Source of the DNA: Eledone cirrhosa
Taxonomy: Eukaryota
DNA: 64,000 nt
NCBI GenBank assembly: GCA_964016885.1
Contig: OZ024742.1
Span: forward strand, 59,520,001-59,584,000
Direction of reading: 5' to 3'
Part shown: positions 5,125 through 29,925 of the stretch, one piece after another
How the letters are laid out: every line of letters begins with the position of its first letter
Position numbering within the stretch: position 1 is the stretch's first letter
The notes under the pieces: model-generated
What the model saw: the letters and a program-made list of their open reading frames with translations, nothing else
Told to the model about the DNA's origin: nothing
The model's database searches: none
Program-made: the position numbers and the translations under genes

Positions 5125-6859
5125 ATACATATACATACTTATACATAGATGCATACATACATAGACATACATACTTATATATACATACACATACATACTT
5201 ATACATACATACAGATATGTATACATACATACATATACATACATACCTATACGTACATACATATCCATATATACATATATATATACATACATAGATGTAG
5301 ATAGATAGATAGAGAGATTTGGCCCGAAATGGTGCTGATGTTAATTTTTTAAATATGTATTTTTTAAAAGCTTCGTACGATTTTAAAAGCTTACTTCTCG
5401 ATAGCGTGGAAAGTCCATAAGTTTGGTTGTGGATCAAACCACAGATTACGCAGCACCAGCCTGAAATGCCTCATGCTGGAAAACTCCTGCACAGCATTGG
5501 ACTTGACGACCCAATACGTGTGTGGTACTATATTGTATCGACCCCCAGAAGGAGAAAGTTGAAACTGTAAACCTTTAAGAAATATTACAAATCCTTTTCT
5601 TCGCTATTTAATGATTCTATCAATCTTAACCCACTCTTACACTTACACTAACAAAGACAATTCACTAATTTGTGGATATTTACTTTGTATGTACACTTCT
5701 CTGCTTAGCTTCACGCCAAAAGTTTTAAATGTATTTAACGACAAAAGAAAGCTGAAGTCGATTGTACAATTCATTCAATCACTATAACAGTCATTACTCT
5801 GACAAGATGTCCACTATTTTCATTTAATTACACTTATTATGGAAGTTTAATGCCATACTATCGACAAGCACAGTCTAATTAAGCGAGGTATATTGGAAAA
5901 ACAGTTAACTACAATAAAAATACCAATATATTGCTGTTTGATTTTTTGTGTTTGTTCTTTGATCTTAATCTACAACTGGACGAGTGTTTGCTAATTGAAG
6001 AGGTGGAGAAATAGATTTTAAAGATATTATACGTTGATAGCTAAAAGGAATTTCGTGATAAATTATGTATGTATGCATAATAATGAATAAGGAAATATTT
6101 TATTTATTTTTTGCTGTTGTTTGAAATATTCAAAGAGATTTATAATCATGCCGATGTTATTAAACATTGTAAAATATTGTTTTTGGTTAACATGAAAGAA
6201 TATTATAATCGATGATGTGTGAATGATGAAAAGCATGTGTTAAATGGGTCGCAATTTGGATTGATATTAGAGATAAGATATATAGATTATTTTGTTGGTG
6301 CTAGCTTCCACTATACATACATCGTTTTATAAATATATATATATATATATATATATATATATATATATATGAATATATATATATATATATATATATATAT
6401 ATAAACAGATTTTACGATGGATCATCACTTTTTTCGACGATTAACATTCAATTGCTTAATCATATTGAAGGTCCAATACTTCGATTAACTAGGAAGCGGT
6501 TGAGTATTCCACAAATCTCGTCTGCTATGAGAATAGATGTGAAAAGGCTGGATCATTGCATTACCCGCACAACATGTCCAAATTGGTTCCACTCATTTTC
6601 CACCTACCCAATTATTACACTGGTCAGCCCAAGAATATATTAAAGTCACTTTGCAAAATGAACTGCTTAATTACCCATTATAGAATGCTTCCCCATCAGG
6701 GACTCTCAAGATGCCGAAAAGATAACGACAGCATTTCTATGTAGGATTCATCATAATAAATATCCAACAATGGTGTACGCGTCTCCGGCAAGCCGAAACT
6801 GTTAGTGTAGTATATATATATATATATGTATATATATATATACTACACTAACAGTTCGA

Positions 6860-6975
6860 TTGACGCAACCTCAAGCGATTAGCGAACTCTAGACACACCT
6901 AATCAACGAGTCAATTGTCAGTACTTTAAATAAATTGTACAGCCAACCACGTTACTCTTCTTCCTTTAACTTTTA
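6860..6975 (+). mobile_element. 5'-truncated PLE terminal-repeat module with 3' half of a decayed HHR
   Basis: Aligns by eye to 14747-14865; GAAAC mutated to GAGTC, followed by AATTGTCAGTAC. Confidence 0.7.
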
Positions 6976-7109
6976 CACACACACACACACATACATGTAT
7001 ATATATATATATATAAGGAACGATCGACTTTCGTCAAATCGGACCGAGGGAACAATGTTTCCGTTGGTCTTTCCAATTGCTAATACTATCTATCGGTCGC
7101 AACTCCAGG

Positions 7110-7232
7110 TAGAAGGAGCAACGTGAAATAAAGTGTCTTGCTCAAGGACGTAACGCATCACCTGGTCCAGGAATCGAACTCACAACCTTACGATTCCGAA
7201 TCCAATTCCCTAACCACTCAGCCACACGCCTT
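7110..7232 (-). mobile_element. tRNA-derived SINE fragment (family B, CORE-like central domain)
   Basis: GGAGCAACGTGAAATAAAGTGTCTTGCTCAAGGA...GGAATCGAACTCACAACC; homologous to 41420-41525. Confidence 0.75.
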
Positions 7233-7488
7233 CACTATATATATATATATATATATATATATATATATATATAAAGTATGTATATATATATATATATATA
7301 TATATATATATTTATATATATATATTTATATATATATATGTATATATATATATATATATATATATATATATATATATTTATATATATATATATGTATATA
7401 TGCATATATATATATATATATATATATATATATATAAAATATTAAACAAATAATGAACAAACAATTCCTTATATTAAACAAAAAAAGT

Positions 7489-7640
7489 TCATTATTTAAC
7501 GATCGTTTCTAGGATATATATGTGTTAGAATTGGTATGCATATTCAACAGATCTATGTACAAAATTATACAAAATTATACAAATTATCAAGATTAAATAT
7601 ACATACCAACACATATATACGCCGTCTTCAGAAATAATGA
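7489..7640 (-). ncRNA. Type I hammerhead ribozyme with ~115-nt stem-II domain
   Basis: Minus strand: tcattattt-CTGAAGA-[long hairpin]-GAAAC-gatc-GTT-aaataatga; 9-bp perfect stem I, palindromic stem III. Confidence 0.8.
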
Positions 7641-8289
7641 AGTATATTTATTGATAATAACAACAATTCAAAATTTCAGGTCCGTTTGGGAACAAAATTG
7701 ACCAATGAAAACACAAAGGGTTAAATGCAGTTCGGTGTGTGTATATACATGTAAAACCCTTACACATATTTTACAAAAATGTATGTATAATTTGTATACG
7801 CATACTAAAAGGATGGATGCAAATACAAAATTTCAAGGTTAATGTCTCTGTAAGTTTATAATGCACAGATAAGATGCGTATTGACACAAGTATGAAATTA
7901 AGTATATAAATATATCTTTTCATACTCACACATATCCGTACAATCACACATACACGCGCGTATATGCATAAATATACACATAACCACGAACATACAAACA
8001 CACACACACCCCCACTCACATTTATATATGTGGATATAAAATCATAAGCACATGGATATTAATTCACTCACATAAAACACTGGCACACACATTTTTAGAT
8101 CAAGATACAGAAATTAGGTGGGAGGGGGGGGGGGGAGAGGTCAGTATTCAACGGTCTGAGCAGACTGCCTAATATAGATGTATCTATAAGCTAAGAAAAT
8201 AAAAAATAATAAATAAACATTAAAGAGGAAAGAATAGAAAGAAAAAAGAAAAAAGAAAAAAGAAAAAAGAAAAAAGAAAAAAGAAATAT

Positions 8290-27827: not shown

Positions 27828-28040
27828 ATGTTTGTGGTCGTACCGTTGGCAGTGGAGACTTCTGGTGTTCTAGGCCCCAGAGCTACCTCCCTACTCACCA
27901 CCATAGGCGCTGAGCTGGCCAGCCACAGGTGTGAGCCTCGCGAGTTGGAATGGCTTTTCCAGTGCGTCTCTCTTGCCGTCTTCTGGGGAAACGCCTTCTC
28001 CAGTCTGTCCGCCGGGGCTATTAGGAGTCCACCAAAGTGA
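27828..28040 (+). mobile_element. 3' fragment of RLE-type (CRE/NeSL-like) non-LTR element
   Basis: VPLAVETSGVLGPRA...WLFQCVSLAVFWGNA matches the PxAVETxGxxG...FQRxSxAxxRGNA endonuclease tail. Confidence 0.75.
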
Positions 28041-28784
28041 TTGATTGACTTGTCATTTTATCAGTCATTTTATCAACTGTTGCTGTCGTTAACAAATTAA
28101 CGTACCTGCCAGTATCAAGGACCTGACCATTCAGTAAACAGGGATTCATCGATTGTGATAGTACAAATAGCTGGAATCAGTGATTATACATTCTGCTGAA
28201 TCTAAAGCTTAGTGTATTAATTCATGCATGCAAACAAACATATGTAGACACACACACAATCATATGCATATATATATATATATATATATATATATATATA
28301 TATATATATATATATATATATATATATATATATATAGTAAGAAACACAGTAAACCGTGTGTCTAATATTACGAGGGTTGAAAGACCACATTTGTTTGAAA
28401 AATTTAACCATGAAGCAGACAGAATGATAAAATAAAATAAAATTATATTATACAAACCGCCTCAATAACAATTATATCTCTCGAACAGATATTATAAGCG
28501 CGCGACGTTATATCTATGTATCTATCTAAAAATACAGAGTAAGAAAGAGAGAGCAATGTCGTATTATATATATTATATATAATAAAGTACCAGTAATGTA
28601 CTGGGATAATTGCTGGCCTTGTGCCAAAAGTAGAAACAATTATACTTCTTTTTTATACAACTGTAAATAACATATTTATGTATGTATATATACGTATAAA
28701 GGAATGCTGTAATAAAATGTATAAATTAAACTGCCTCTTATTTATGATACTATATATATATATATATATATATATATATAGATG

Positions 28785-28835
28785 AGATTCTACAGGACTA
28801 GAACTGTTTCATTCTTTAGAAATCATCAGGAATCT
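28785..28835 (-). ncRNA. Solo type I hammerhead within (TA)n
   Basis: Minus strand: agattc-CTGATGA-tttctaaagaat-GAAAC-ag ttctagtc ct-GTA-gaatct; intact core, 6-bp stem I. Confidence 0.85.
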
Positions 28836-28899
28836 ATATATATATACACACACAGATAACGAAGTCAATGTACAGAATGGTTTTCATAATGCAGACAGC

Positions 28900-29510
28900 T
28901 AGTCATACAGAGACATATTATAAGGGCGCGACGTTATAGCTATGTATCTATCTAAAAAGACAGAATAAGAAAGAGGGAGGAATATCGTATAACAGGAAGT
29001 GTTGACATTTGAAAATTTAAAAAAAAGTAAAAGTGAATATTTAAATAATATCTTTAATCTTTTAACAAAATTCAGTAGACAAAAATACCCTCACTTTCTT
29101 ACTTGGAAAAAGTTACACCTATGGTGCAAATTTGGTGCCGTTTGGTTCAGCCGTTTGGCGAAAAGTTTGTTACATACATATGGCCGTCAGCTTTATTAGC
29201 ATAGATTATAATAACAGATTAAAGTTTAAGCAAAGAATCGCTGCTTTCACCCTTAACGGGATCTTCTGAAACTAAGAAAATCAATCTGTGAACTCAGAAG
29301 TAAATATTTAGAAAAACGTTGCAACCGAAGGAAAATAGGAAGACGGTACTTTGGTTCGTGAAGACGTTCCCTGGCAAAGAACGGAAAAAAGCGAAGATAA
29401 TACGGCGTTATGTGGAACAACGAGAACAAATACACGCAAAGACAAAACCGCGTTTATGGTATGAATGGAGACGTATTCTGTTTAGAAAACCGAATGATTC
29501 TCGGCGTCGG
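28900..29510 (-). mobile_element. Non-autonomous Helitron-like segments (5' terminus near 29205)
   Basis: Minus strand begins a-TCTATGCTAATAAAGCTGACGGCC; blocks 28980-29206 and 29210-29368 recur at 34015-34232 and 33855-34012. Confidence 0.6.
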
Positions 29511-29925
29511 TGTTAAGATTAATTATTTCTACTTTTGGCACAAGGCCAGCAATTACCCAGTACTTTATTTTATCGGAGTTAAGAATAATGTAAATAAATT
29601 AGTAGGACGAAAATGACAGGTTTTTAATATCATAAAAGTAATAATAATAAATATATCCATACACACATCTATATACGTACATACACGTGCATACCCGAAA
29701 ATACCCGCCATGCATGCATATACATACACGTACACATAAACATGCGCCATAACAAAGGAGATTAATAATCTTTAAAAGGTATCTATATTTGAAGTTCTCG
29801 TTAAATTTTAATTAGTTACCTACCTAGCTGTGTGTGCTTACACTCTTTACAAACTATCCCTTGTGATTGTTTCATGTTTATTTTATATATATATATATAT
29901 ATAAAATAAACATGAAACAATCACA

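What the first reader, a model, noticed from the sequence alone, without database searches (positions are those of the whole stretch)
6797..29925. Recurrent fold-back duplication of flanking DNA at 5' junctions of PLE modules
Seen in three independent cases: sequence beyond the (TA)n tract is copied in inverted orientation next to the element's 5'-truncated end. These are 6797-6856 (before + module 6860), 20775-21204 (at the 5' end of minus-strand PLE-2) and 29862-29925 (before + module 29926, with AAGGGAT-like microhomology). Known: PLEs often carry inverted copies of their own termini and some clades prefer (TA)n. Inference: the self-complementary TA end snaps back and primes synthesis on host flank before joining the cDNA, a mechanistic footprint that creates host palindromes.
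Basis: partly seen in the sequence, partly recalled or inferred. Interest (0 to 1): 0.72.

Follow-up and report, generated by a model that had tools for sequence, protein, structure and literature searches.

The report
Fold-back flank copies at retroelement junctions
At three places a short stretch of DNA beside a TA repeat has been copied backwards and now touches the cut-off front end of a Penelope-type jumping gene, likely because the broken TA end folded back on itself during insertion; this is a rare scar of a kind already described for human L1 elements.

Summary
All three palindromes are real and far beyond chance. In each, DNA on the far side of a (TA)n tract is repeated in reverse. 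The copy ends exactly (0-6 nt overlap) at the 5'-truncated end of a TA-targeting retroelement that reads away from it.

The "host flank" claim holds cleanly for one case only. The 6797 flank is single-copy. The 20775 arms are degenerate microsatellite. The 29862 arm is the end of another high-copy repeat.

I found a fourth case elsewhere in the genome (L012), with a single-copy flank.

The event is rare:
- 1 of about 215 family copies outside the window shows it.
- 0 of 27 other PLE-2 5' junctions show it.
- In 1.6 Mb of spaced genome samples, 8 TA-centred fold-backs exist and none touches a retroelement 5' end.

So fold-back is a general property of broken TA tracts, not a Penelope hallmark.

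All 4 element-abutting cases involve 5' ends, although TA tracts touch 3' ends five times more often. This favours formation during integration.

The mechanism matches the "inverted duplication at the reciprocal end" reported for L1 and the R2 snap-back junctions.

Earlier notes of this scan described TA fold-back scars on other pieces of this genome.

The parts
6797..6810 (+). Case 1, template arm: single-copy upstream flank AACTGTTAGTGTAG
   Evidence: Palindrome found. Window 6700-6812 has 1 candidate and 1 match in the 3.0-Gb genome.
6811..6842 (.). Case 1, central (TA)n tract: (TA)8 TG (TA)7
6843..6856 (+). Case 1, copy arm: reverse complement of 6797-6810. Its last 1-4 nt overlap the start of module N.
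6853..6997 (+). Module N: a 5'-truncated copy of a high-copy, TA-targeting short repeat. It is followed by (TA)9 at 6998-7015.
   Evidence: 2101 first-look candidates. Longer copies continue upstream, and other truncated copies abut TA directly. 14 hits start at the arm edge.
18977..20776 (-). PLE-2: a 5'-truncated Penelope-like element with half an RT domain plus GIY-YIG. Its 3' end lies at (TA)8, 18961-18976.
   Evidence: Pfam RVT_1 at 4e-9 (profile 111-182 of 205) and GIY-YIG at 2.7e-4 (21.6 bits against a 22.6 cut-off). Family identity is 98-100%.
20775..20862 (.). Case 2, copy arm, next to the PLE-2 5' end. It overlaps the element by 2 nt.
20863..21116 (.). Case 2, centre: (CA)n (TA)n (TG)n, a 24-nt piece of the arm, then (AC)n (AT)n (TG)n. 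This is a nested, partly triplicated fold-back.
   Evidence: Read. One search shows direct and inverted self-matches.
21117..21204 (.). Case 2, template arm: degenerate-microsatellite flank, 97% complementary to 20775-20869.
   Evidence: The best match elsewhere in the genome is only 76% identical.
29749..29883 (+). Repeat X, a high-copy unit of about 155 bp that ends at a TA tract. Its last 22-31 nt (29862-29883) form the template arm of case 3.
29884..29903 (.). Case 3, central (TA)10
29904..29925 (+). Case 3, copy arm: reverse complement of the X tail. An imperfect 8-nt match continues to 29934 after a 2-nt offset.
29926..30106 (+). Module M copy 1, 5'-truncated just after the hammerhead-like core of the family. 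No TA tract follows its 3' end.
   Evidence: 29926-30083 matches 30630-30786 at 97.5%. Sequence read. Other copies end at 30106 followed by TA (table 7).
32206..32264 (.). A fourth TA-centred fold-back in the window that was not in the finding. The end of a repeat is copied backwards (16-19 nt) and followed by a second (TA)13 and unique DNA. No element 5' end is present.

Best explanation
Each site is a real inverted duplication of the DNA beside a (TA)n tract. It was likely made when the TA-ended 3' end of the upstream half of a TA microsatellite, broken during insertion of a Penelope-type retroelement, folded back on itself, primed 14 to about 130 nt of synthesis on its own flank, and was then joined through 0-6 nt of microhomology to the 5'-truncated cDNA.

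**Shown**
- The palindromes exist and are far beyond chance.
- Each copy arm ends exactly at a 5'-truncated element.
- The flank is single-copy in two cases: 6797 and L012.
- The elements' 3' ends lie at TA tracts in three of the four cases.

**Inferred**
- The snap-back step itself.
- Its timing at integration rather than later.
- Which polymerase did the copying, element RT or a host enzyme.

The same snap-back also happens at TA-tract breaks without any element. The copy arm is then rejoined to the other half of the TA tract.
For: **Structure**
- Four loci in four different families (N, PLE-2, M, Z) share one topology: flank, TA, reversed flank, then a 5'-truncated element reading away.
- No TA is left between the copy arm and the element in any of the 4.
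- Overlaps at the junction are 1-4 nt (6853-6856), 2 nt (20775-20776), an imperfect 8 nt (29926-29934) and 6 nt (CAGAAA, L012).

**The arms are not a mobile hairpin**
- Window 6700-6812 and L012:430-548 are each single-copy in 3.0 Gb.

**Orientation**
- All 4 element-abutting fold-backs are at 5' ends.
- Among 704 HSPs of five families, a TA tract abuts the 3' end 216 times and the 5' end 42 times.
- An orientation-blind later break would give 4 of 4 with probability about (42/258)^4, or 7e-4 (my arithmetic).

**Priming at the upstream TA end**
- The upstream TA end seems to be used as a primer routinely in these families. 12 of 27 visible PLE-2 5' junctions, and 58 of 223 copies overall, carry a head-to-head inverted own copy ending at TA.

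**Age**
- The case-2 arms differ by 3% over 95 nt.
- PLE-2 copies differ pairwise by 2-4%.
- So the fold-back is about as old as the insertion.

**Precedent (passages read)**
- An R2 'snap-back' class of 5' junctions.
Against: **Fold-backs are mostly not at element junctions**
- In 1.6 Mb of spaced samples (2802 TA regions), 14 palindromes were flagged, against 1.6 expected from shuffled pairing.
- After curation, 8 are flank or tail fold-backs.
- In 4 of these the copy arm is followed by more TA/TG microsatellite. In the other 4 it is followed by unique or low-copy DNA. In 0 it is followed by a high-copy element's 5' end.

**The event is very rare among insertions**
- None of 27 other PLE-2 5' junctions shows it.
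- 1 of about 215 copies outside the window shows it.

**Case 3 is weak**
- Its arm is a repeat end that 4 of 11 other X copies match exactly over the 23 nt.
- M has no 3' TA tract.
- The Y segment that follows the TA tract in 9 of 12 X copies is missing.
- A deletion-type repair fits case 3 as well.

**Other limits**
- No empty allele or second haplotype was found.
- No raw long reads were seen.
- Direct, non-inverted flank repeats across TA tracts are also common: 114 of 2802 TA regions, in about 24 loci by my count of the rows. TA tracts are unstable in several ways.
Confidence: 0.55

Rival explanations
1. The chemistry is the same snap-back, but at a later break unrelated to retrotransposition. 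A spontaneous break in the TA tract upstream of an existing element was repaired by fold-back synthesis plus microhomology end joining. The repair deleted the rest of the TA tract and the element's 5' part.
For: - Fold-backs without any element at the junction are the majority class: 8 in 1.6 Mb, plus 32206-32264 in the window.
- Iterated zig-zag fold-backs exist at L065 2219-2387, L140 and L183.
- Case 3 lacks a 3' TA tract and the Y segment that normally follows X's TA tract.
Against: - All 4 element-abutting cases are at 5' ends, although 3' ends touch TA five times more often. This gives about 7e-4 under orientation-blind repair (my arithmetic).
- No copy arm abutting a 3'-truncated or antisense high-copy element was seen in 1.87 Mb.
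- The case-2 arms are as diverged as PLE-2 copies are from each other.
Confidence: 0.25
2. The palindromes existed before the insertions. A TA tract had already acquired a reversed flank copy followed by a second TA tract, and the element later inserted into that second tract.
For: Palindromes in which the copy arm is followed by a second TA tract are the commonest class (32206-32264, L125, L140, L166, L202). These elements target TA.
Against: - In all 4 cases no TA remains between the copy arm and the element, whereas 27 ordinary 5' junctions keep TA.
- Among palindromes with a second TA tract, none has a high-copy element starting right after that tract.
Confidence: 0.08
3. For case 3 only: two independent insertions of repeat X lie tail to tail in one TA tract. 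The second is cut down to 23-31 nt, and M was joined later.
For: - X is high-copy, with 1393 first-look candidates.
- 4 of 11 other X copies are identical to the arm over the 23 nt.
Against: - Only this locus among the 40 scored X copies has a second, reversed tail across the TA tract.
- The scenario needs three coincident boundaries.
- It cannot explain 6797, 20775 or L012, whose arms are single-copy or locus-specific.
Confidence: 0.05
4. The palindromes are assembly or library artefacts, that is, chimeric fold-back reads.
For: No raw long reads could be examined. Short-read contigs break inside the case-3 palindrome.
Against: - The arms are only 14 to about 90 nt, so they would lie well inside single long reads.
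- They carry mismatches and indels: 1 mismatch in case 1, 94% identity in case 2 and a 2-nt offset in case 3.
- The same kind of structure recurs at unrelated loci.
Confidence: 0.03

Closest known systems
[quoted passage not shown]
   Same: - A retroelement made by target-primed reverse transcription.
- The upstream target end self-anneals at a tiny homology (TA/AT in their example) and primes synthesis.
- The result is a reversed copy of the flank next to the insertion, on the side away from the primary RT end.
   Different: - Here the element is Penelope-type (GIY-YIG endonuclease), in germline-fixed copies of an invertebrate-like genome.
- The hairpin nucleus is a whole self-complementary (TA)n microsatellite, which is also the element's preferred target.
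- The copied tracts are short, 14 to about 130 nt.
R2 'snap-back' 5' junctions in PRINT transgene insertion (PMC11371274; passages read)
   Same: Extra DNA-templated synthesis before 5' junction formation gives antisense sequence at the junction, occasionally templated on nearby target DNA.
   Different: There the cDNA 3' end is said to snap back, mostly on the cDNA itself. Here the template is the upstream target flank and the turn lies in a TA tract.
Inverted 5'-truncated copies and the one-sided 30-40-bp 'tail' of EN+ Penelope-like elements (PMC8557442 and PMC3846280; passages read)
   Same: - The same elements and the same TA targets.
- I see that pattern here: 12 of 27 PLE-2 junctions carry it, and the inverted partner lacks the last 37-45 nt.
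- Self-priming has been proposed for it.
   Different: Those repeats are made of the element's own sequence and lie head to head. The finding's repeats are made of flanking DNA and are centred on the TA tract. The passages I read do not describe that.
Snap-back templated insertions of polymerase-theta end joining (recalled from general knowledge; no paper read here)
   Same: A 3' end folds back on nearby microhomology, copies 5-30 nt, then rejoins by microhomology. Iterated rounds occur.
   Different: The enzyme is untestable here. Four of the junctions are to retroelement 5' ends.

Membership tests
Endonuclease-positive Penelope-like element (for PLE-2, 18977-20776, minus strand) | A reverse transcriptase domain followed by a C-terminal GIY-YIG endonuclease in one ORF | tested here: met
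   RVT_1 at E=4e-9 and GIY-YIG at E=2.7e-4. The GIY-YIG score is 21.6 bits, just under the 22.6 cut-off. Both lie in the ORF 19686-20780, minus strand.
Endonuclease-positive Penelope-like element (for PLE-2, 18977-20776, minus strand) | Frequent 5' truncation, a head-to-head inverted 5'-truncated partner, and a one-sided tail of 30-40 bp | tested here: met
   In 27 of 29 other loci the 5' end is visible, and most copies are 200-480 bp. Twelve have an inverted partner that stops 37-45 nt short of the 3' end.
Endonuclease-positive Penelope-like element (for modules N, M, X, Z) | Derivation from an RT-encoding PLE, or a canonical hammerhead in the pseudo-LTR | tested here: inconclusive
   - No coding part was found in these modules.
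- M has CTGATGA, an 8-bp stem and GAAAC. Rfam Hammerhead_1 scores only 19.6 bits against a gathering score of 34, and nothing reaches gathering level.
- N and Z show TA targets, 5' truncation and head-to-head pairs.
Inverted duplication at the reciprocal end of a TPRT break (L1 type) | A reversed copy of the upstream flank lies directly between that flank and the element's 5' end, with the element's 3' junction intact | tested here: met
   Cases 6797, 20775 and L012 have 3' ends at TA tracts. Case 29862 has the 5' structure but no 3' TA tract.
Inverted duplication at the reciprocal end of a TPRT break (L1 type) | Formed in the same event as the insertion | not testable with these tools
   No empty or alternative allele was found in the assembly. 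The contigs laid were uninformative. The only support is indirect: the 4:0 bias towards 5' ends and the similar age in case 2.
Mobile hairpin element (MITE or foldback transposon) | The same arms recur at many loci | tested here: not met
   The arms of 6797 and L012 are single-copy. The arms of 20775 match other loci at 76% or less. Other copies of X are single-armed in the 40 scored.
Polymerase-theta snap-back templated insertion | An insert templated on the adjacent flank in reverse, with microhomology at the rejoining point | tested here: met
   The sequence features are met. The enzyme itself cannot be tested here.

The most novel reading that the evidence does not exclude
The Penelope reverse transcriptase itself extends the TA-ended upstream target 3' end. 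Normally that end pairs with the (UA)n-like 3' end of a second RNA and launches the familiar head-to-head inverted copy. When it pairs with itself instead, the enzyme copies host DNA. Flank fold-backs would then be failed second primings. They would be direct evidence that both ends of the TA break act as primers in Penelope integration, and that these elements seed new host palindromes.
Probability: 0.3. Interest if true: 0.6.

Novelty: new member of a known kind. Interest (0 to 1): 0.36.

Why it matters
The integration mechanism of Penelope-like elements is unsolved. The authors of PMC8557442 ask for an in vitro system to explain their tandem and inverted structures and their microsatellite bias (passages).

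A flank-templated fold-back at the 5' junction is a natural record of what the upstream break end can do. It shows that a self-complementary target repeat can divert that end.

The finding also shows how TA microsatellites in this genome generate small, cruciform-capable palindromes (-23 to -33 kcal/mol as single strands), with or without an element.

The practical weight is modest. The event is rare and has a described counterpart in L1.

Tried and rejected
**Independent reads**
- The look-up of sequencing runs listed 10 runs, 7 of them holding part of the stretch.
- The second (29300-32500, four contig runs) was dominated by repeats. Contigs are cut at 29871-29916, and no listed piece bridges either palindrome. 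This gives no verdict for or against.

**Empty alleles or haplotigs in the assembly**
- None was found for 6700-6812.
- None was found for 18800-18962, which turned out to be the end of an older TA-tailed repeat Q.

**Rfam**
- Nothing reaches gathering level in the window.
- At E<=1 the case-3 palindrome hits generic miRNA hairpin models far below their thresholds. I treat these as meaningless.

**Mobile hairpin reading**
- Rejected, because the arms are single-copy.

**Curation of the flagged palindromes**
- L094 4596-4741 was first counted as a flank fold-back. After I saw the same family next to the window, I reclassified it as an ordinary head-to-head pair of element ends.
- L131 2361-2392 is a reversed copy of the element's own first 8 nt, not of the flank.
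- L161 and L222 are low-complexity.
- L192 is a palindromic minisatellite.
- These five loci account for 6 of the 14 flagged rows (L192 gives two), which leaves the 8 counted.

**Age test on cases 1 and 3**
- The arms are too short. Zero mismatches are expected with probability about 0.15-0.26 (my arithmetic), so the test is uninformative.

**Regional hot spot**
- The 100 kb flanking the window (276 TA regions) holds 0 TA-centred flank fold-backs.
- The cluster of 4 within 26 kb therefore remains unexplained.

**Earlier notes**
- The search of earlier findings by place returned nothing.
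Full report
**Setting**

The window is AT-rich (34.5% GC) and carries 118 (TA)>=6 tracts in 64 kb. It lies in a 3.0-Gb assembly at G000:C3:59520001-59584000.

One element has coding evidence for a Penelope-like element (PLE). The minus-strand ORF 19686-20780 has the second half of an RVT_1 domain (E=4e-9, profile 111-182 of 205). It also has a GIY-YIG motif (E=2.7e-4, 21.6 bits, just under the 22.6 cut-off).

The other 'modules' are short, non-coding, high-copy repeats:
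- N has 2101 first-look candidates.
- X has 1393.
- M carries CTGATGA, an 8-bp stem and GAAAC. Its Rfam hammerhead match reaches only 19.6 bits against a gathering score of 34.

These repeats share the habits of PLEs. They show 5' truncation, 3' ends at TA tracts and head-to-head inverted pairs. Passages of PMC8557442 and PMC3846280 describe those habits.

- 6797-6856 is a 60-bp palindrome with one mismatch.
- 29862-29925 is a perfect 64-bp palindrome. It extends to 29855-29934 across a 2-nt offset.
- 20775-21204 is a 432-bp palindrome, 94% self-complementary, whose outer 95 nt are 97% alike.

As single-stranded DNA the two short ones fold at -25.1 and -33.0 kcal/mol, with z-scores of -11.6 and -13.1. 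Random pairing of TA-tract flanks gives none in the window.

In each case one arm ends exactly where a 5'-truncated element begins.
- N starts at 6853-6857. Longer copies continue upstream, and other truncated copies abut TA directly.
- PLE-2 starts at 20776. 37 of 39 other scored copies match at 98-99% up to that base and no further.
- M starts at 29926, which corresponds to 30630 of the longer copy 30479-30790.

The overlaps between copy arm and element are 1-4 nt, 2 nt and an imperfect 8 nt.

**What the arms are**

Only case 1 is plain host DNA. Window 6700-6812 is single-copy in the genome.

The case-2 arms are degenerate microsatellite. They match other loci at 76% or less but match each other at 97%.

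The case-3 template arm is the end of repeat X. In 9 of 12 copies X continues after its TA tract with a conserved segment Y. Y is missing here. M copy 1 has no TA tract after its 3' end at about 30106. Case 3 therefore cannot be reconstructed as a simple insertion into that TA tract.

By contrast, N is followed by (TA)9, and PLE-2 is followed by (TA)8 and then an older TA-tailed repeat Q.

**How common it is**

I examined 29 further loci of the very young PLE-2 family. All 40 scored copies are 100% identical over the 3' 204 nt. In 27 of the 29 loci the 5' junction is visible:
- 12 have the classical head-to-head inverted own copy, which lacks the last 37-45 nt.
- 9 abut TA directly.
- 1 has TA plus 11 nt.
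- 5 have no TA.
- None has a flank fold-back.

I also made a census of five families in 1.87 Mb of held sequence. It found 223 copies with intact 3' ends:
- 4 have a flank fold-back, namely the three in the window and one new case.
- 58 have an inverted own copy.
- 27 abut TA directly.
- 125 are 'other' and 9 lie at a locus edge.

The new case is L012 529-592 (G000:C4, about 306.7255 Mb). A single-copy flank is followed by (TA)13, then an 18-20-nt reversed copy. That copy is joined through a 6-nt CAGAAA overlap to a 5'-truncated Z module whose 3' end lies at a TA tract.

I took 160 stretches of 10 kb at regular spacing on 13 contigs. Together they hold 1.6 Mb and 2802 TA regions.

- 14 TA-centred palindromes with complex arms were flagged, against 1.6 expected from shuffled pairing.
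- I set aside 2 low-complexity rows, 2 rows of one minisatellite, 1 ordinary head-to-head pair (L094) and 1 reversed copy of an element's own first 8 nt (L131).
- That leaves 8 flank or tail fold-backs.
- In 4 the copy arm is followed by more TA/TG microsatellite (L125, L140, L166, L202).
- In 4 it is followed by unique or low-copy DNA (L145, L178, L183, L210).
- In none is it followed by the 5' end of a high-copy element.

The window has its own example of the first type at 32206-32264. Some loci show repeated zig-zags of a 15-20-nt unit in alternating orientation between TA tracts (L065 2219-2387, L140, L183).

Direct flank repeats across TA tracts are also frequent. They occur at 114 of 2802 TA regions, mostly in arrays, in about 24 loci by my count.

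Fold-back is therefore a general behaviour of TA tracts in this genome, not a mark of PLE junctions.

**Why I still favour formation during integration for the element-abutting cases**

First, in all four cases no TA remains between the copy arm and the element. That is unexpected if an element had later landed in a second TA tract.

Second, all four involve 5' ends of elements that read away from the palindrome. Yet TA tracts abut 3' ends of these families 216 times and 5' ends 42 times among 704 HSPs. An orientation-blind later break with deletion would give 4 of 4 with probability about 7e-4 (my arithmetic). No copy arm abutting a 3'-truncated or antisense high-copy element turned up.

Third, the case-2 arms (3% apart) are as diverged as PLE-2 copies are from one another (2-4%).

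Fourth, the upstream TA end is evidently a working primer in these families, because it carries the inverted own copy in about a quarter to a half of insertions.

The simplest picture has three steps:
1. The element's endonuclease opens the TA tract.
2. The downstream end primes the cDNA.
3. The upstream top-strand end, which ends in self-complementary TA, occasionally pairs with itself, copies 14 to about 130 nt of its own flank, and is then joined to the cDNA by a few nucleotides of homology.

When no cDNA is present, the same end is rejoined to the other half of the TA tract. That gives the commoner class in which the copy arm is followed by a second TA tract. Which polymerase does the copying is open.

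**Comparison with what is known**

[quoted passage not shown] It attributes them to a self-annealed 3' end priming synthesis at a 2-bp TA/AT homology (10.1101/2024.12.14.628481; passages read).

Work on R2-based insertion defines a 'snap-back' class of 5' junctions (PMC11371274; passages read).

The PLE papers I consulted describe inverted copies of the element itself, a one-sided tail and a TA bias. The passages I read do not describe reversed copies of the flank. My three literature searches were not exhaustive.

I therefore class the finding as a new member of a known kind: the same scar, in another retroelement class, nucleated by the target microsatellite.

Earlier notes of this scan on other pieces of the same genome had already described TA-tract fold-back scars and head-to-head Penelope insertions. 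They agree with what I tested here.

**What remains open**
- The timing, integration or later, rests on indirect arguments.
- No empty allele or haplotig was found.
- Independent reads gave no verdict.
- Four TA-centred fold-backs lie within 26 kb here, against about 5 per Mb elsewhere and none in the flanking 100 kb. This is more than expected and unexplained. It may be a look-elsewhere effect of the scan.

Noticed in passing
window 32206-32264: A fourth TA-centred fold-back that is not in the finding. The end of a low-copy repeat (paralogue at 34858-34960) is copied backwards for 16-19 nt, then followed by a second (TA)13 and unique DNA. No element 5' end is present.
   Followed up: yes
window 6797-32264 against flanks L240-L249: Four TA-centred fold-backs lie within 26 kb. 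Eight lie in 1.6 Mb of spaced samples, and none lie in the 100 kb flanking the window. The local clustering is unexplained and may be a look-elsewhere effect.
   Followed up: partly
window 17656-17767, 35153-35297, 17821-17939/18103-18219, 35345-35988/36771-37390, 38168-38906/39740-40483: Further palindromes and inverted repeats whose centres are not TA tracts and whose outer ends run into TA. They look like the ordinary head-to-head inverted pairs of Penelope-type modules.
   Followed up: partly
L065 2219-2387 (G000:C14, near 11.92 Mb): A 15-nt unit (CAAAGGAGAGATTAG) occurs four times in alternating orientation, separated by TA tracts, just beyond the outer end of a PLE-2 inverted copy. It looks like iterated snap-back synthesis.
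   Followed up: partly
window 29749-29903 and loci L003-L010: Repeat X is followed, after its TA tract, by a conserved segment of about 25 nt (GTCAATCAATTTCTAGTTGATATA) in 9 of 12 copies. The TA tract is therefore internal to a larger unit, or the segment is a 'tail'.
   Followed up: partly
window 58414-59852: A tandem array with a 53-bp period, about 27 units at 98-99% identity, seen as a ladder of self-matches.
   Followed up: no
window 18977-20776 and loci L044-L073: The PLE-2 family is extremely young. All 40 scored copies are 100% identical over the 3' 204 nt, and there are 933 or more first-look candidates. It may still be active.
   Followed up: partly
window 2980-3900 (+) and 53798-54299 (-): Another reverse-transcriptase fragment (RVT_1, E=6.6e-11) and a related fragment 50 kb away.
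   Followed up: no
random sample L074-L233: Direct (tandem) repeats of short flanks across TA tracts occur at 114 of 2802 TA regions, mostly within minisatellite or satellite arrays such as L103 and L168.
   Followed up: partly
window 7100-7230 (-): A tRNA-like sequence that looks like a SINE head, repeated at 41419-41524. It was not checked with a tRNA finder.
   Followed up: no
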